DNA from: Octopus vulgaris
Taxonomy: Eukaryota
Assembly (NCBI GenBank): GCA_951406725.2
Contig: OX597819.1
Span: 126,542,001-126,606,000, forward strand
Direction: 5' to 3'
Length of the DNA stretch: 64,000 nucleotides
Shown in pieces: positions 9,753 through 59,852 of this stretch (positions within the stretch are counted from its first letter, which is position 1; every line of letters starts with the position of its first letter). The notes under the pieces were generated by a model. That model did not search any database. It saw only the letters and a program-made list of their open reading frames with translations, and had not been told where the DNA came from. Made by a program: the position numbers and the translations under genes.

Positions 9753-9941
9753 TAGGGAGAGTTTACGAAAAACAAAACAAAAGACGAACACAGGTGGTGT
9801 ACAAAACAAACAGATGTATTAGTATTACGCTCAGGAATAGAAAAAGTCTTTTACGTTTCGAGCCTACGCTCTTCTACAGAAAGGGACACAGAAAAGCAAG
9901 GAGAGAAACAAGGAGAGAAAAAATGTGTGTAGTGGCTAACG
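9753..9941 (-). mobile_element. ~190-bp hammerhead-like repeat (family H), copy 1
   Basis: Reverse complement of 48535-48720 and 52571-52762; carries CTTT-CTGTAGA-A-GAGC-GTAG-GCTC-GAAA-CG-TA-AAAG at 9846-9887 on the minus strand. Confidence 0.85.
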
Positions 9942-10419
9942 CTCCTCGAATAAGGTTGTCTATTCATCTGCACATGTTTGTACAGGTTTTACCAAGTTTA
10001 TATCGAGGAAGGCTAGCTGTTGCTCCTCGACACGATGCTTATCCTTGGGAAAAATCACAAATTTGGGCCGATACAATCTGACACCAGTGTCATTGCAGGC
10101 GTTGCTACCAGAACACAAAGAGTGAGGAACATATATCGCGAGACATTTTCCTGTTACGCTAAAAGTTCCGCCCATCCAACATCCTGAATTTGTTGATATC
10201 TTTCCCCCGAAAAGGTTCAAGTGTAAATTTGTCTTCGGTGGAATTTGAACTCAAAGAGCAGAGAGTCAAACTAAATACAGTGTGGTTTTCTATCCAACGC
10301 TCTAACGACTCAGCCAGTTCACCTTCTTCTGGAACAGACGTAAAGAATAAATTACCTTGGTTAGCTACGTCGTTGGTTATTCACAATTTATCGTATTTAG
10401 TAGAGTGAGTTACTATTTA

Positions 10420-11290
10420 ATTCAAGGTCAGTCATGATCGACCGAATCTATGGTCAAGTGCGTTCTAATTGTAATCATCTCTTCTTTTTATGCGTGTCTA
10501 AGTTTACGTTGTCTAATTTGCACTTTCTTTTCTTTATTTAGACAATAGGCTATAATTCGAGTAAGTTTTGGCTACTATTTCTTACAGAACTTTTAACCAT
10601 GGAAAGGTTCTCTGTTAATTTGTCAAATGGATGTGTTATGTTGTTAGCTGTTACTGTTGCCACTGTTTAAGCTTAGATCAGCCCTGTTCGAAGCAACATA
10701 CAATAAAAAGCCTTCCAGCCAGGACCATCCAATTGTTTTCCTAAGTGCAAATATATATATATATATATATATATGTATATCACAAGCTCATATTCAAAAT
10801 GTCCGTTTCTGTGATGATTAAGGTATGATTAGAGGATATTTGGTTGTCATTTCTAGCAATTCAAGCGACCACATCGAAACACTCACATTGGCACGTTTTA
10901 TAGCTAGATGATCAAATAGGTGTGTCTCACTGTCGCTTGGTCATATAATAAATCATATAGTTAGTCATATCGTTAGCTAGTCATTTCGTTAGTCATATAT
11001 TTTGGCTATATTGTTTAATATACTTTTTAATTAGTCGCATAATGTTGGCATCGTTCTTAAAACGTTGCTACTGCTGTGGTTGTTGTTGTTTTGCTCAAGT
11101 CGGCCATGAAAGAACCAAACTATGATCAAAGCTGGGGCCCAGTCAGCCAGCCATGACCATCTTGTCTGTTAGTCAGTACTTCTCTTAACTATCTTTTTTT
11201 CGTTATCCTTCCTGTTTTGAAACAATAGGATGTGATTTCAAGAAGATTTGGCAGCTTTTTTGTAGTAAATCATACGACCATATAGATCAA
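10420..11290. mobile_element. Three adjacent decayed copies of an old dispersed repeat (probable ancient SINE)
   Basis: Recurring TATGATCAAAG...CCAGCCATGACCATC...TGTGATTT...GATTTGGCTGCTATTTCTAGCA-like blocks; related fragments near 31.1, 36.5, 40.5, 40.9, 60.5 and 62.9 kb. Confidence 0.55.
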
Positions 11291-11339
11291 GGCTACTACT
11301 ACTACTACTACCACAACCACAATTACGTTGCAACGTTAC

Positions 11340-11382
11340 CGTAGTAGTAGCAGCGGCAGCAGTAACAACAGCAGCAGCAATG

Positions 11383-11431
<49 letters not shown>

Positions 11432-11481
11432 AAGTATTAGTAGTAGTAGCAGCGGCAGCAGTAACAACAGCAGCAGCAATG

Positions 11482-11515
<34 letters not shown>

Positions 11516-11565
11516 AAGTATTAGTAGTAGTAGCAGCGGCAGCAGTAACAACAGCAGCAGCAATG

Positions 11566-11617
<52 letters not shown>

Positions 11618-11670
11618 AAGTATTAGTAGTAGTAGCAGCAGCAGCAGTTGTTGTAGTAGTAGTAATAATT

Positions 11671-11703
<33 letters not shown>

Positions 11704-11838
11704 ATAGTTGTAGTAGTAGTAGTAGTTGTTGTAGTAGTAGTAGTACTAGTTCTAGTAGTAGTAGTAGTAGTTGTAGTTGTAGTAGTTGTAGTAGTAGTTG
11801 TAGTAGTTGTACTAGTAGTAGTTGTAGTAGTACTTATT

Positions 11839-11885
<47 letters not shown>

Positions 11886-11890
11886 TATTA
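11340..11890. repeat. (GTA)n microsatellite with a triplicated higher-order unit
   Basis: AGCAGCGGCAGCAGTAACAACAGCAGCAGCAATGGTAGT...AGAAGTATT occurs three times between 11348 and 11625. Confidence 0.95.
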
Positions 11891-12066
11891 TTTATACTTT
11901 TACTGTTGTTGATACTCTCACATTTTGCTCAAACCACATCCACTGCAACCATTGCTGTTGTTCCTACTGTTTCTCCACTGCCTGCCATTAACTACAAATA
12001 AGACATCATCAACTGCTACCGTTGTTGCTTCTGCTGCTTCCCTACTGCCATTGCTAATAGTCGCTA

Positions 12067-15463: not shown

Positions 15464-15744
15464 TGAATTTTATAGCATTCGTTATTCTTGCACAGTATGT
15501 AGAGCGCTTGTGGTGGCGCAGAAGGATAAGAACAAATTAAGAAATGACAGTCCTATACTCGATCAATGTTAATGAGTTAATTAATGAATTAATTGTTACT
15601 GCACTGCACACCGGTTTTCGAGTAATTTGACATGTAAAGTATAATGCGTTAATAAACACGTGGTTTGACCTTGTCAGAAGTAAACAAAATGGTTATATCA
15701 TAGTCATTCCGTAGGTATAAAATGCTTTTCTGGATATTTCGAAT

Positions 15745-17437
15745 GTATGCATGCATGTATGTATGTATGTATGTATGTATGTATGTATGTATGTATGTAT
15801 GTATGTATGTATGTATGTATGTATGTATGTATGTATGTATGTATGTATGTGTGTGTGTATGTATGTATGTATGTATGTATGTATGTATGTGTGTGTATGT
15901 ATGTATGTATGTATGTATGTATGTATGTATGTATGTGTGTATGTATGTATGTATGTATGTATGTATGTATGTATGTATGTATGTATGTGTGTATGTATGT
16001 ATGTATGTATGTATGTATGTATGTATGTATGTATGTATGTATGTATGTATGTATGTATGTGTGTATGTATGTATGTATGTATGTATGTATGTATGTATGT
16101 ATGTATGTATGTATGTATGTATGTGTGTGTGTATGTATGTATGTATGTATGTATGTATGTATGTATGTATGTATGTATATATGTATGTATGTATGTATGT
16201 GTGTATGTATGTGTGTATGTATGTATGTATGTATGTATGTATGTATGTATGTATGTATGTATGTATGTATGTATGTATGTATGTATGTATGTATGTATGT
16301 ATGTGTGTGTGTATGTATGTATGTATGTATGTATGTATGTATGTATGTATGTATGTATGTATGTATGTATGTGTGTGTGTGTATGTATGTATGTATGTAT
16401 GTATGTATGTATGTATGTATGTATGTATGTATGTATGTATGTATGTATGTATGTATGTATGTATGTATGTATGTATGTATGTGTGTGTGTGTGTATGCAT
16501 GCATGTATGTATGTATGTATGTATGTGTGTATGTATGTATGTATGTATGTATGTGTGTATGTATGTGTGTATGTGTGTATGTATGTATGTATGTATGTAT
16601 GTATGTATGTATGTATGTATGTATGTATGTATGTGTGTGTGTATGTATGTATGTATGTATGTATGTATGTATGTATGTATGTATGTATGTATGTATGTGT
16701 GTGTGTATGTATGTATGTATGTATGTATGTATGTATGTATGTATGTATGTATGTATATATGTATGTATGTATGTATGTGTGTATGTATGTGTGTATGTAT
16801 GTATGTATGTATGTATGTATGTATGTATGTATGTATGTATGTATGTATGTATTATGTATGTATGTATGTATGTATGTATGTATGTGTGTGTGTATGTATG
16901 TATGTATGTATGTATGTATGTATGTATGTATGTATGTATGTATGTGTGTGTGTGTATGTATGCATGTATGTATGTATGTATGTATGTATGTATGTATGTA
17001 TGTATGTATGTATGTATGTATGTATGTATGTATGTGTGTGTGTGTATGTATGTATGTATGTATGTATGTATGTGTGTATGTATGTATGTATGTATGTATG
17101 TATGTATGTATGTGTGTATGTGTGTATGTATGTATGTATGTATGTATGTATGTATGTATGTATGTATGTATGTATGTATGTGTGTGTATGTATGTATGTA
17201 TGTATGTATGTATGTATGTATGTATGTATGTATGTATGTGTGTGTGTATGTATGTATGTATGTATGTATGTATGTATGTATGTATGTATGAATCTATGTA
17301 TATATGTATGTATGTATGTATGTGTGTATGTATGTGTGTATGTATGTATGTATGTATGTATGTATGTATGTATGAATGTATGTATTATGTATGTATGTAT
17401 GTATGTATGTATGTATGTATGTATGTATGTATCTATG

Positions 17438-17471
<34 letters not shown>

Positions 17472-17905
17472 TGTATGTATGTATGTATGTATGTATGTAT
17501 GTATGTATGTATGTATGTATGTATGTATGTGTGTATGTATGTATGTGTGTGTATGTATGTATGTATGTATGTATGAATGAATGTATGTATGTATGTATGT
17601 ATGTATGTGTGTATGTATGAATGAATGTATGTATGTATGTATGTGTGTGTATGTATGTATGTATGTATGTGTGTATGTATGTGTGTATGTATGTATGTAT
17701 GTATGTGTGTGTGTATGTATGTATGTATGTATGTGTGTATGTATGAATGAATGTATGTATGTATGTATGTATGTATGTGTGTGTGTGTATGTATGTATGT
17801 ATGTATGTATGTATGTATGTGTGTATGTATGAATGAATGTATGTATGTATGTATGTATGTATGTATGTGTGTATGTATGTGTGTATGTATGAATGAATGT
17901 ATGTA
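15745..17905. repeat. ~2.1-kb (TATG)n microsatellite with TG/GAAT interruptions, followed by (TCTA)n
   Basis: Directly visible; it explains the 500-600 aa MYVC ORFs. Confidence 0.98.
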
Positions 17906-48534: not shown

Positions 48535-48720
48535 CAGTCGCCATGATAGATCGTTAGCCACTACACATTTTTTTCTCTCCTTGTTTTTTCTGTGTCCCTT
48601 TCTATAGAAGAGCGTAGGCTCGAAACGTAAAAGACTTTTTCTATTCCTGAGCGTTATACTAATACATCTGTTTGATTTGTACACCAACTGTTTTCGCCTT
48701 TTGGTTTTTTCGTAACCCCC
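48535..48720 (+). mobile_element. Hammerhead-like repeat family H, copy 2
   Basis: CTTT-CTATAGA-A-GAGC-GTAG-GCTC-GAAA-CG-TA-AAAG at 48598-48633; TA-rich flanks. Confidence 0.85.
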
Positions 48721-48729
48721 CCCCCCCCA

Positions 48730-51779: not shown

Positions 51780-52570
51780 CGAGTACAGTTTTTTAAAATT
51801 TTGTCCCAAACTTTTAAAAACCCTTAAATACTAGAGTCAGCGTGACAGACGGAAACCTTCAAGGTCATGCACCAACATGGCTGCCATCCACTGACTGAAT
51901 CAAATGAAAGAATAGAATATAGCTGACATTTTGAAGTGAAATCGTTTGCGGTATTTCATCTGGCTGAGTTCTGAGTTCAAATCCCGCCGAGGACACCTTT
52001 ACGTTTCATCCTTTCAAGTCAATAAAATAAAGTCCCATTCTGCAGTAGAATCGACTTATTTCATTCACTCAATCTTGCTGCTCTTGTGGCTAAATCAGAA
52101 GCTCTTATTTCTTTCTTTATTTTTTTCCTTGTCAATTCGGCCAAAATAAGCCATCACTTTGCAATATTTCCTCATAATTTCACCACAGGACCAAGAATTT
52201 TATGCTCCTGAGCACAAATCCTGCAGAGGTTAAATCTGACTTCTGTTTTTCGATCATTGACGTGACTTATAATGTATTTCATTTCCGCAGCCCTCACTCT
52301 GCGACTGGTTTTGGTGAATGAGGGAATTGGATGTCATTGCATTCATTTCTGTTTCTTACCATGGGATAAGTTCATCTGAGATCGCAAATAAAAATTTGTG
52401 CATTTTTTATATAAATCAACATCAATAATTTACAGACCACTAAATTTGCAGTTATTGAAAGTATCAGTGCCTACTCTGAATGGAGAGAGTAGGGCATTTG
52501 GTACAAGCCAATGGGATCCAGTTCGAGGGTTGTTACAGCTTTTATTCCCAAAGTTCGGCATTAGATCTAT

Positions 52571-52759
52571 CAGTCGCCATGATAGATCGTTAGCCACTAC
52601 ACTAATTTTTTTCTCTCCTTGATTTTTTCTGTGTCCCTTTCTGTAGAAGAGCGTAGGCTCGAAACGTAAAATACTTTTTCTATTCCTGAGCATTATACTA
52701 ATACATCTGTTTGTTTTGCACACCATATGTCTTCGTCTTCTGTTTTTATCGTAAACTCT

Positions 52760-52762
<3 letters not shown>
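52571..52762 (+). mobile_element. Hammerhead-like repeat family H, copy 3
   Basis: CTTT-CTGTAGA-A-GAGC-GTAG-GCTC-GAAA-CG-TA-AAA at 52637-52671; ends ...GTAAACTCTCCC directly into (TA)n. Confidence 0.85.
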
Positions 52763-52833
<71 letters not shown>

Positions 52834-55589: not shown

Positions 55590-56346
55590 CATACATACAC
55601 ACACACACACACATACATACATACATACATACTTACATACATACATATATACATACATACATACATACATACATACATACATACATACATGCATACATAC
55701 ATACATACATTCATACATACATACATATATACATTCATACATACATACATACATACATACATACATACATACATACATACATACATACATACATACATAC
55801 ATACATACATACATACATACATACATACATACATACATACATACATACATACATACATACATACATACATACATACATACATACATACATACATACATAC
55901 ATACATACATACATACATACATACATACATACATACATTCATACATACATACATACATACATGCATACATACATACATACATACATACATACATACATAC
56001 ATACATACATACATACATACATACATACATACATACATACATACATACATACATACATACATACATACATGCATACATACATACATACATACATACATAC
56101 ATACATACATACATACATACACATACATACATACATACATACATACATACATACATACACACATACATACATACATACATACATACATACATACATACAT
56201 ACATACATACATACATACATACATACATACATACATACATACATACATACATACATACATACATACATACATACATACATACATACATACATACATACAT
56301 ACACACATACATACATACATACATACATACATACATACATACATAC

Positions 56347-56377
<31 letters not shown>

Positions 56378-56487
56378 CATACATACATACATACATACAT
56401 ACATACATACATACATACATACATACATACATACATACATACACACATACATACATACATACATACACACATACATACATACATACA

Positions 56488-56521
<34 letters not shown>

Positions 56522-56554
56522 CATACATACATACATACATACATACATACATAC

Positions 56555-56585
<31 letters not shown>

Positions 56586-56758
56586 CATTCATACATACAT
56601 ACATACACACATGCATACATACATACATACATACATACATACATACATACATACATACATACATACATACATACATTCATACATACATACATACATTCAT
56701 ACATACATACATTCATACATACATTCATACATACATACATACATACATACATACATAC

Positions 56759-56789
<31 letters not shown>

Positions 56790-56867
56790 CATACATACAT
56801 ACATACATACATACATACATACATACATACATACATACATACATACATACATACATACATTCATACA

Positions 56868-56901
<34 letters not shown>

Positions 56902-57030
56902 CATTCATACATACATACATACATACATACATACATTCATACATACATACATACATTCATACATACATACATTCATACATACATACATACATACATACAT
57001 ACATACATACATACATACATACATACATAC
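55590..57030. repeat. ~1.4-kb (CATA)n microsatellite
   Basis: Directly visible. Confidence 0.98.
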
Positions 57031-57240
57031 GTACGTACGTACGTATGTATGTATGTGTATGAGAGGAGAGAGCGCGAGCGAGAGAAAGAAAGAGAGAGAG
57101 GGAGAGGGAGAGAGAAAGATGGAGAGGGAGAGAGAGACGAAGGTGTGCTTACATATGAATATGTACATACAGTTATTAGGTGCAGAAATAGAAATAATCT
57201 TTTCTACTCTAGGCACAAGGCCCGAAACTTTTTGGGTGAA

Positions 57241-57590: not shown

Positions 57591-57885
57591 ACAACATAAC
57601 TCTTCTTTCTAATCCTGCTAGGAACTGTTTGACATTTTTCAAGTCCTGCAGCGAGAGTAACTGATTCTAGTACTGGAAACACATTGGCATAACCGATACC
57701 ACTTCATTTTCTGGGCATGGTGCTAGTGTCATTAATAGTACTGATGCTAATATAGGTGACTGCAACCAGTTCCTCAGAATTCTGGCCAGTTTAAGAGTGA
57801 AGAACAAATAGTTTCTAGAATACACTTTTAAAATACAGAAAAAAACAAACAAAACTTACGAGTAACATAAAAGTTTCCTGCCGAC

Positions 57886-58535
<650 letters not shown>

Positions 58536-59852
58536 CTATGATCGTTATCCTAAATTGACAAAAATTATATTTATAGAAATTTCTGCCAACATCATATATA
58601 ACAAAAATTCATCTTGTTACAATTATGTGTGTGTGTATGTGAGAGTGTGTGTGTTTGTGTGTATGTGTGTGTGTGTGTGGGTGTGTGTAAGGTAATGATC
58701 TCTCTATTTTTCATTCCTCTCTCTCTCTCTCTCTCGCTTCTGTCTCACTGTCACCCTCTTCTTACACCCTGTAAATTTGTAAGTCCGTCCCTCTTTGTCT
58801 CTGCCACTCTGTCTGTCGGCCTGTCTGTCACACACACACACACACACACACAGACACACACACACACACACACACACTCAGTCACTCACACACACACACA
58901 CACACACACATATATAGGTATGATCAACAGAAATTGTTTTCTTCCGGTGAACTTTTCGTCTGATTGTTTTTCTAATCGTTAAATGGAGGAGGAAACAGGT
59001 TTCATGTCTTCGTGCTTATACTTCTCTCTCCCTCTCTTCCACCCCTCTCTCCCTCTCTTCCACCTCTCTCTCCCTCTCTTCCACCCCTCTCCTCCACCTC
59101 TCTCTGTTTTATTTTGGTGTGCGCCGGTATTATTTTTATATAAGTTTGGTTATCTCGTTTCTGTTGTCTTCTGTCATGTCAGAGAAGAATTGGGATGGCA
59201 ATGAAAGAAAGAAAAATTGTGTGATGGTGAAACAAACAGAGAGAGAGGGGGGAAAGAGAGGGTGGGGGTGGGAAGAGTGTGTAGGAAAAAAGAAAACTTA
59301 GACAAGAAGTGTAGGGACCGTTTTGACATGAGTAATATTTACATGAACAATACAAAATAATTATAGAGCATGGACCCAATGTAGTACTAAAATAGAGCTG
59401 TTTGATGACGATAGGGCACAATGGGTTAACTCGATGTTTAAGCCCCTCACTCTCTCTCTCTCTCTCTCTTTATTTCTCTCACACACAGACACACGCACAT
59501 ACACTCACACACATACATACATACTCGTAAGTATATAAATCTTTGACCCTTTATATGGTGGGTGTTACTCTTTCTGAAGTACCGGTGACCAATGGAGTGG
59601 AAGGAAATATGGCACGTTAGAATATATTTGAATATTCTTTAGCCATTCATTAGGTACTCCCTCACACACGTGTGTGTGTGTATGTATGTATGTATGTATG
59701 TATGTATGTATGTATGTATGTATGTATGTATGTATGTATGCATGTATGTATGTGTGCGCCCTTTAAAAACTTCCTCCTTGAGACGCACACCCACGCACTA
59801 GATCTGTGTATGTGTGCTTAAAGGGAGAAGTGTTTAACGAGTGCAAATATAA

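What the first reader, a model, noticed from the sequence alone, without database searches (positions are those of the whole stretch)
52571..52762. Small TA-associated repeat family carrying a hammerhead ribozyme fold with a non-canonical core (CUGUAGA-A)
Seen: three copies (9753-9941 minus, 48535-48720, 52571-52762) share stem I (CUUU/AAA[G]), core CUGUAGA, an extra A, stem II GAGC-GUAG-GCUC, GAAA, a palindromic ACGU stem III and the UA cleavage site. The 48.6-kb copy has CUAUAGA. Established: minimal hammerheads with palindromic stem III occur in Penelope-like retroelements and retrozymes and cleave as dimers; the canonical core is CUGANGA. Inference: this is a non-coding, non-autonomous ribozyme retroelement that amplified with U at the normally invariant A6. 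It is therefore either an active variant ribozyme or a dead ribozyme retained as a mobilisation signal. Standard CUGANGA motif searches would miss it.
Basis: partly seen in the sequence, partly recalled or inferred. Interest (0 to 1): 0.75.

Follow-up and report, generated by a model that had tools for sequence, protein, structure and literature searches.

The report
Penelope retrotransposon tail, altered hammerhead core
These short repeats are cut-off tail ends of a protein-coding jumping gene that has many near-identical intact copies; its small hammerhead RNA motif has U in place of a normally fixed A in every subfamily sampled while the rest of the motif stayed unchanged, which likely means a slowed but still-used self-cutter and would give a natural test of what this RNA does for such elements.

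Summary
The three copies and the hammerhead-like motif are real. They are not a non-autonomous retrozyme. They are 5'-truncated 3' ends (pseudo-LTRs) of an autonomous, Neptune-like Penelope element (4.5-kb unit, one RT + GIY-YIG frame) inserted in (TA)n. U6 is the genome consensus: 9,590 exact matches with U6, 115 with A6, 276 with C/G6. The youngest intact elements (99% identical proteins) also carry it, in both pseudo-LTRs where two are present. Across six subfamilies whose flanks differ by 8-29%, only N7 and N17, the two positions a hammerhead leaves free, changed. A canonical A6 sister family shows one compensatory stem I pair. The fold is therefore under selection. Known A6 changes lower activity, and copies show no pile-up at the cut site, so a slow, protein-assisted ribozyme is likeliest; a dead but bound fold is the main rival. 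Cleavage is untested. I found no natural A6U in print, but three relevant papers were unavailable. This scan noted A6U Penelope hammerheads before in other genomes (unreviewed notes). Verdict: new variant of a known kind.

The parts
52571..52762 (+). 5'-truncated 3' end (pseudo-LTR stub) of a Neptune-like Penelope element, window-type subfamily (core CUGUAGA, A17)
   Evidence: longer relatives join it to an RT + GIY-YIG frame
52637..52672 (+). minimal type I hammerhead motif; stem I CUUU (52637-52640) with AAAU (52669-52672; family AAAG)
   Evidence: sequence; alignment with 12 other copies
52641..52648 (+). 5' core C3 U4 G5 U6 A7 G8 A9 plus inserted A; the non-canonical U6 is at 52644, the free N7 at 52645
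   Evidence: genome counts; N7 varies
52649..52660 (+). stem-loop II GAGC-GUAG-GCUC
   Evidence: unchanged in six subfamily majorities
52661..52668 (+). G12 A13 A14 A15.1, palindromic ACGU (52664-52667; stem III predicted only as a dimer), A17; predicted cut between 52668 and 52669
   Evidence: matches the min-HHR consensus of PMC4209133 Fig. S3
52673..52762 (+). about 90-nt tail 3' of the hammerhead; its end is the inferred start of reverse transcription
   Evidence: shared 3' end; in intact elements the upstream copy continues into the 5' UTR and the downstream copy into (TA)n
52763..52833 (.). (TA)n/(TG)n microsatellite at the insertion site
48535..48723 (+). second stub; hammerhead 48598-48633 with a G5-to-A change (CUAUAGA), read as a post-insertion mutation
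   Evidence: 1 of the 30 best genomic matches has the same change
9755..9944 (-). third stub, more 5'-truncated; hammerhead 9883-9848 with the family sequence

Best explanation
The repeat is the 5'-truncated 3' end of an autonomous Penelope-like retrotransposon whose hammerhead motif has U6 in all six subfamilies sampled, and that motif likely works as a slowed, protein-assisted self-cleaver rather than a fast or a dead one. Shown: the parent is a 4.5-kb unit with one RT + GIY-YIG frame, often in partial tandem with the U6 motif on both sides; new copies end about 90-100 nt 3' of the motif in (TA)n; most are short stubs like the three here; along the lineage only N7 and N17 changed. Inferred: the endonuclease nicks (TA)n, reverse transcription starts inside the RNA at the tail end (probably helped by a UAUAUAU stretch matching the target), runs back through the hammerhead and usually stops early. 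The template must be continuous across the predicted cut site, either uncut or cut and re-joined into a circle, so a slow or protein-gated ribozyme would be tolerated or favoured. A6U would lower the intrinsic rate, and binding of the element's protein or pairing of two ACGU palindromes would supply what activity is needed.
For: Parent: 24 of 30 loci picked by the ORF end carry the motif downstream, 17 with the window's CUGUAGA core; L043 has a 765-aa frame with RT (Pfam RVT_1 E 5.9e-6). From the 150 RT matches listed I took 20 loci with open frames over 1,000 aa: 20 of 20 have a U6 motif downstream, 15 of 20 a second one 4.47-4.57 kb upstream. All 20 hold DKG, YIDD, CX2-5CxxC, YIG and CCHH motifs by my own patterns; the 13 with the start Met in frame are 97.8-99.9% identical. 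U6 fixed: 9,590 U, 115 A, 276 C/G in one 33-nt context. In loci picked without looking at the motif: 29 U, 3 C of 32; 25 U, 1 C of 26; 61 U of 61. Selection: 2 of 36 motif columns vary among six subfamily majorities against 71 of 125 flank columns; substitutions-only pairwise tests give p 1e-4 to 4e-3 for the 10 most diverged of 15 pairs and 0.013-0.21 for the other 5. The two free columns are N7 (A, C, G, U) and N17 (A, U). Of the first 100 of 4,724 non-A17 matches, 96 are U, 4 G, 0 C. Four public runs under four organism labels show the same pattern; position 6 is not among the rows listed at 3% or more, 15 rows hidden. Low activity expected: A6C in a phage hammerhead gives kobs under 0.1 per min (PMC3088659 section 8); single and double changes in the CUGA turn gave low activity in a mutational scan (PMC9901934 passage). 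In the anole Penelope the hammerhead cleaves only with the protein, and uncut RNA is the main insertion template (PMC11167929). Both pseudo-LTRs of one insertion share variants (95 columns in both; own 3' copy nearest or tied in 15 of 19; only 1 one-sided variant recurs between insertions), as expected if one template is read more than once round.
Against: No cleavage was measured. Copies do not pile up at the predicted cut site. Of 89 matches, at most 29 look like junctions at -1 to +1. Of the 30 inspected, 8 were at 0/-1 (ambiguous through TA microhomology), 3 at -2, 4 at -3 and 15 intact, against about 3,400 youngest-type copies that span the site (72% of 4,724). Only 2 of 119 tail-selected copies start there. 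PMC11167929 found hammerhead mutants fully active for insertion in vitro, so catalysis may be dispensable. Loop II and the inserted A are also invariant, which fits protein binding as well as catalysis. No stem pair covaries inside the U6 lineage; the one compensatory pair is against the A6 sister family, and 25 of 500 shuffles reach the score. The monomer fold is weak (stem I probability 0-0.42 in the U6 copies folded). Constancy of U6 itself is not significant, since about four in ten flank columns also stayed constant. Subfamilies were defined by my own tail words, one has only 3 copies, and columns are not independent. Shared pseudo-LTR variants also fit re-priming on the same RNA or gene conversion.
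Confidence: 0.52

Rival explanations
1. The motif no longer cleaves. Its three-way fold or its DNA sequence is kept as a binding site for the element's protein, or as part of the pseudo-LTR promoter, and the element spreads from uncut RNA.
For: A6 is a conserved core base, and CUGA-turn changes gave low activity. No excess of 5' ends at the cut site. Anole Penelope hammerhead mutants still insert in vitro. Naiad elements spread without canonical hammerheads (PMC8557442 passages). Loop II is invariant.
Against: All unpaired core bases other than position 6 stayed fixed while N7 took all four bases and N17 moved only between A and U. That is the pattern catalysis predicts and a simple hairpin-binding site does not need. 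A natural C6 variant retains low activity.
Confidence: 0.3
2. U6 is compensated by the rest of this motif (inserted A, GUAG loop, dimer, or a metal preference) and the ribozyme is as active as the A6 sister families.
For: U6 persisted through six subfamilies and into the youngest intact elements. A6C shifts metal preference to Mn2+ rather than killing cleavage (PMC7151607).
Against: No compensating change is visible: the A6 sister families share the inserted A, stem II and ACGU and differ only in loop II, the outer stem I pair and N7/N17. The mutational scan found no rescue in this region except the C3-G8 swap (a type III ribozyme).
Confidence: 0.11
3. The motif is a neutral relic that hitchhikes in the pseudo-LTR, and its conservation is an effect of how I sampled copies.
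For: Many loci were fetched by the motif itself, and required at most 5 substitutions in it.
Against: Copies picked by the old 3' tail alone keep the motif in 28 of 30 loci; 112 of 119 tail-selected hits have it upstream; groups picked by ORF end or RT give the same core.
Confidence: 0.05
4. One reading: a non-autonomous, non-coding retrozyme about 190 nt long that is mobilised in trans.
For: Most copies are short: 1 of 63 exact-motif copies has a same-strand ORF remnant within 3.7 kb. One of the first 30 loci (L008) is a four-copy head-to-tail array.
Against: 5' ends are ragged and grade into the UTR and ORF of a coding element; intact parents with the same motif exist.
Confidence: 0.02

Closest known systems
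Minimal hammerheads (min-HHR) in pseudo-LTRs of animal Penelope-like elements (Cervera and De la Pena 2014, PMC4209133; main text parts 1-2 of 4 and supplementary file 2 part 2 of 3 read; file 1 not searchable)
   Same: Type I layout, short helix I, extra base between 9 and 10.1, G10.1-C11.1, GAAA, palindromic CG at 15.2/16.2, UH site, U-rich 5' and AU-rich 3' flank; mostly single truncated copies, a few in full elements.
   Different: Their consensus is CUGANGAH, and every row of the Fig. S3 alignment that I saw has A6; the core variant they describe is U3-A8. Here U6 is fixed in the whole lineage, intact elements included.
Neptune-type EN+ Penelope-like elements (as described in Craig et al. 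2021, PMC8557442; passages read)
   Same: Single frame with RT and C-terminal GIY-YIG, CCHH and CX2-5CxxC motifs, partial tandems forming pseudo-LTRs, heavy 5' truncation, microsatellite targets.
   Different: Non-canonical hammerhead core. Clade placement rests on motifs only; no tree with named Neptune or Nematis elements was built.
Anole Poseidon element PAc (Frangieh et al. 2024, PMC11167929; parts 1-3 of 4 read)
   Same: Internal start of reverse transcription 3' of the hammerhead, AT-rich targets, copies that span the cut site.
   Different: PAc has a canonical core overlapping its start codon. Here the motif lies about 720 nt 5' of the start codon (L342), and the insertion end shares TTATATAT with the target, whereas PAc starts without homology.
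Natural A6C hammerhead of phage Bcep176 (Perreault et al. 2011, PMC3088659 section 8; Naghdi et al. 2020, PMC7151607 part 1 of 4)
   Same: Natural change at core position 6 with the rest of the core kept.
   Different: One phage locus with C6 and measured low, Mn2+-favoured activity; here U6 in tens of thousands of copies, activity unmeasured.
Animal non-LTR retrozymes (bioRxiv 10.64898/2026.07.22.740005, part 1 of 5 read; PMC7229834, search listing only)
   Same: Type I hammerhead, Penelope connection, high copy number.
   Different: Retrozymes are non-coding tandem units; this unit is the truncated end of a coding element.

Membership tests
EN+ Penelope-like element (Neptune type) | single ORF with RT and C-terminal GIY-YIG endonuclease | tested here: met
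   L342 and L329: RVT_1 E 2.3e-7 and 1.4e-7 (above cut-off); GIY-YIG E about 0.007 (below cut-off) near the C-terminus; YIDD and YIG in 20 of 20
EN+ Penelope-like element (Neptune type) | CCHH motif in the endonuclease | tested here: met
   own pattern, 20 of 20 long frames; feature from PMC8557442
EN+ Penelope-like element (Neptune type) | CX2-5CxxC linker between RT and EN (Neptune, Nematis) | tested here: met
   C-x4-C-x2-C in L342; 20 of 20
EN+ Penelope-like element (Neptune type) | partial tandem forming pseudo-LTRs; 5' truncation; microsatellite target | tested here: met
   15 of 20 long loci have two motifs about 4.5 kb apart; ragged 5' ends; 18 of 19 two-motif units end in TA repeats, 1 runs into a further unit
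EN+ Penelope-like element (Neptune type) | RT groups with named Neptune elements in a tree | not tested
   homologue search gave 849 hits, mostly unnamed; the named ones among the 120 listed are animal proteins without clade labels
Minimal type I hammerhead of Penelope elements | C3 U4 G5, G8 A9, G12 A13 A14, A15.1-U16.1, C3-G8 pair | tested here: met
   invariant in 13 of 13 aligned copies and in six subfamily majorities
Minimal type I hammerhead of Penelope elements | A at core position 6 | tested here: not met
   U in 9,590 of 9,981 matches
Minimal type I hammerhead of Penelope elements | extra base after A9, G10.1-C11.1, palindromic 15.2-16.2, H17 | tested here: met
   against the consensus; N17 is A or U
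Minimal type I hammerhead of Penelope elements | helices I and II supported by covariation | tested here: inconclusive
   one compensatory pair (C-G against G-C) between U6 and A6 families, 25 of 500 shuffles as high; 9 of 10 pairs never vary
Minimal type I hammerhead of Penelope elements | self-cleavage (as dimer or with protein) | not testable with these tools
   only contigs were available; genomic 5' ends show no clear excess at the site
Rfam hammerhead families | covariance-model match | tested here: not met
   no hammerhead family at E<=10 on window 52560-52760
Non-LTR retrozyme | non-coding unit with no coding parent | tested here: not met
Non-LTR retrozyme | tandem units each with a hammerhead | tested here: not met
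   1 of 30 best-match loci is an array; the three window copies are single
Non-LTR retrozyme | abundant small circular RNA | not testable with these tools
   no run on record as RNA and no raw reads listed

The most novel reading that the evidence does not exclude
A6U is a tuned, functional hammerhead core. Penelope lineages, perhaps repeatedly (unreviewed notes of this scan report it in other genomes), selected a slow, protein-gated ribozyme that cuts and re-joins the 4.5-kb RNA into the circle from which partial tandems are copied. That would widen the hammerhead consensus to CUG(A/U)NGA and explain why these elements keep the motif.
Probability: 0.25. Interest if true: 0.72.

Novelty: new variant of a known kind. 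Interest (0 to 1): 0.46.

Why it matters
Why Penelope elements keep a hammerhead is open: it is widely conserved, yet dispensable for insertion in the one in vitro system (PMC11167929). This genome holds a natural comparison: a very recently amplified lineage with U6 and an A6 sister family with the same stem II. The U6 lineage kept every other catalytic base through at least six subfamilies. One cleavage assay on the pair would show whether the hammerhead core tolerates U6 or whether the fold is kept for a non-catalytic job. Either way, CUGANGA-based surveys miss over 14,000 exact copies in this genome alone.

Tried and rejected
Rfam scans: no hammerhead hit; microsatellites swamp the window scan. 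Alternative register with U as an insertion: rejected, it would put A at position 8, and the A6 sister families and the free N7 fix the register. A6 or C6 subfamilies inside the lineage: rejected; the 60 copies inspected fall across subfamilies with the N7 of each (output partly cut), which fits scattered later mutations; one (L075) is a chimera. An unrelated U6 family with another stem II: none apparent in the first 100 of 639 matches, nearly all single changes of this family. A distal stem between CG(C/T)T upstream and AGCG downstream: probability 0.05 or less where it could be scored; dropped. A pseudoknot between loop II and upstream CUAC: present only in some subfamilies by eye; dropped. 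Expression and RNA ends: no RNA holder listed; contigs cannot show ends, and the loose-end tables gave no usable count at the cut site. Cut-site test in the A6 sister family: 0 of 22 tail-selected copies start there, too few to compare; the genome-wide version was not run. No Penelope ORF remnant in the window (tblastn), no tRNA, and long frames are almost all microsatellite artefacts. Literature searches for natural A6U: 3 papers, the 2 listed have other subjects by title and abstract start; not opened; 0; 0; no title on it; two searches returned only PMC8557442. Lunse et al. 2017, Arkhipova et al. 2017 and Nelson and Uhlenbeck 2008 were not held, so a printed A6U Penelope hammerhead is not excluded. 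The supplements of PMC9901934 were listed but not read, so I have no A6U-specific rate.

Full report
Observation. In the focal copy the motif spans 52637-52672, U6 is at 52644 and the predicted cut lies between 52668 and 52669. Its stem I has a private C-U mismatch. The 48.6-kb copy has G5 changed to A. Rfam does not recognise the motif.

Genome context. The window lies in a 2.8-Gb genome of 227 contigs. From its size and microsatellite load I guess a cephalopod; this is recall, not tested. The 30 best matches to the unit all have U6: 29 CUGUAGA and 1 CUAUAGA at the matched site. Most end at the same 3' point, followed by TA repeats, and have ragged 5' ends.

The parent element. Two of those 30 (L002, L005) share about 800 nt further 5', ending in sequence that codes for an endonuclease C-terminus. 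A search with that piece gave 30 loci, of which 24 have the motif 557-1,313 nt downstream, 17 with the window's core. L043 holds a 765-aa frame with RT. A protein search listed 150 matches, many with identical scores. I fetched 20 with open frames over 1,000 aa and 20 others. All 20 long ones have a U6 motif downstream, and 15 have a second one 4.47-4.57 kb upstream; of the other 20, 18 have a motif downstream and 2 none. Nineteen two-motif units differ by 0.1-0.6% in the ORF windows and up to 2.3% in low-complexity UTR. The frames carry RT, the CX2-5CxxC linker, GIY-YIG and CCHH, the set that PMC8557442 gives for Neptune and Nematis (passages). The 13 of 20 frames with the start Met in frame are 97.8-99.9% identical. 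The unit is therefore the truncated end of an autonomous, very recently amplified Penelope-like element. Stubs dominate: 1 of 63 exact-motif copies from contig C1 has a same-strand ORF remnant within 3.7 kb.

How copies form (inferred). In 19 of 19 two-motif units the upstream pseudo-LTR continues after TTATATAT into the 5' UTR, and in 18 of 19 the downstream one continues into TA repeats. Reverse transcription thus starts inside the RNA about 90-100 nt 3' of the motif, as shown in vitro for the anole element (PMC11167929). Here 8 nt match the target. Upstream pseudo-LTRs extend up to 1.45 kb 5' of the first motif. The two pseudo-LTRs of one insertion share variants: 95 columns in both, 55 in the 5' only, 35 in the 3' only, many of the one-sided ones in low-complexity or edge columns. 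The own 3' copy is nearest or tied in 15 of 19, and only one one-sided variant recurs between insertions. This fits one template read more than once round, either a circle as proposed in PMC4209133 or re-priming; gene conversion is not excluded. So copies that span the cut site do not prove that the RNA is never cut.

U6 is the lineage state. In one 33-nt context there are 9,590 matches with U6, 115 with A6 and 276 with C or G. Freeing stem II gives 15,411, about 3.9% decay per site, from which I estimate roughly 34,000 A17 copies; 4,724 further exact matches have a non-A17 base. The A6 and C6 copies inspected are spread over the subfamilies, as later mutations would be. Loci chosen by the old tail, by the ORF end or by RT, without regard to the motif, give U6 in 29 of 32, 25 of 26 and 61 of 61 copies, and A6 in none (anchor allowed 5 substitutions with positions 6, 7 and 17 free; loci picked for deviant cores were dropped from the subfamily majorities). 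Canonical A6 sister families exist: 5,633 matches to a looser pattern. They have the same stem II, other loops and mostly G-C in place of C-G at the outer stem I pair. Four public runs under four organism labels hold the element; N7 and N17 vary in all four, and position 6 is not among the differences listed (15 rows hidden).

Selection on the fold. Six subfamilies, defined by tail words (59, 17, 32, 3, 29 and 20 copies; tail divergence from their majorities 2-11%), differ in 8-29% of flank positions but only at N7 and N17 within the 36-nt motif: 2 of 36 against 71 of 125 variable columns (flank count includes indels and columns are not independent). N7 took all four bases; N17 is A or U, with G in 4 of the first 100 non-A matches. 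These are the positions the min-HHR consensus leaves free. There is no covariation within the lineage; across families one pair is compensated (25 of 500 shuffles). The monomer fold is weak, as expected for motifs that need a dimer or protein.

Does it cut? Not shown. A natural A6C cleaves slowly (PMC3088659) and prefers Mn2+ (PMC7151607). A mutational scan found low activity for changes in the CUGA turn (PMC9901934; no A6U figure seen). In the anole element the canonical motif cleaves only with protein and is dispensable for insertion in vitro. Genomic 5' ends show no spike at the site: at most 29 of 89 matches; 8 at 0/-1 against 3 at -2 and 4 at -3 among 30 inspected; 2 of 119 tail-selected copies. 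I judge a slowed, protein-assisted ribozyme somewhat more likely (0.52) than a dead but bound fold (0.30), because all other catalytic bases were kept and only the catalytically free positions moved.

Novelty. Truncated Penelope ends with minimal hammerheads are known and common (PMC4209133). A lineage-wide A6U in intact, recently active elements was not found in my searches, but three relevant papers were not held. This scan's unreviewed notes report A6U Penelope hammerheads in other genomes; they are leads only, and none matched this sequence. Verdict: new variant of a known kind, worth one bench test.

Noticed in passing
window 52564-52588: A 9-nt inverted repeat at the 5' junction of the focal copy (52564-52572 pairs with 52580-52588); possibly a fold-back made when reverse transcription stopped.
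   Followed up: no
L008:1100-2000 (G000:C28): Four stubs head to tail with a period of about 216-236 nt, separated by short TA runs: a retrozyme-like array made from the pseudo-LTR stub; the copies carry different point changes.
   Followed up: no
L075 (G000:C2): Chimera: 5' flank and stem I strand of the canonical A6 sister family joined, within the core, to stem II and tail of the U6 lineage.
   Followed up: no
L047, L156: A U6-lineage copy directly followed by a stub of the canonical A6 family on the same strand, suggesting insertion of one family at the end of the other.
   Followed up: no
L383, L385, L391: Youngest-type stubs truncated at or near the predicted cut site that carry a short extra piece of the tail just 5' of the junction; L391 repeats the first 11 nt after the site. 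May record run-off at an RNA 5' end and re-priming.
   Followed up: partly
L309-L328: 5' truncation hot spot 57-83 nt upstream of the motif (6 of 15 CUGUUGA/U17 copies), 3 of them at the same AT microhomology.
   Followed up: partly
L342:6225-6566 and the other long loci: The ORF has no stop right after the endonuclease end; it runs 100-126 codons into a variable pyrimidine-rich repeat in 20 of 20 long frames.
   Followed up: no
L349-L360: A group of young copies shares an in-frame TAA just 5' of the RT core yet has intact U6 ends, possibly a defective sub-lineage copied in trans.
   Followed up: no
window 15700-17900, 55600-57050, 57830-58560, 11270-11900: Very long simple repeats (TATG/CATA, AAT, GTA types) that give extreme skews and spurious long frames.
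   Followed up: no
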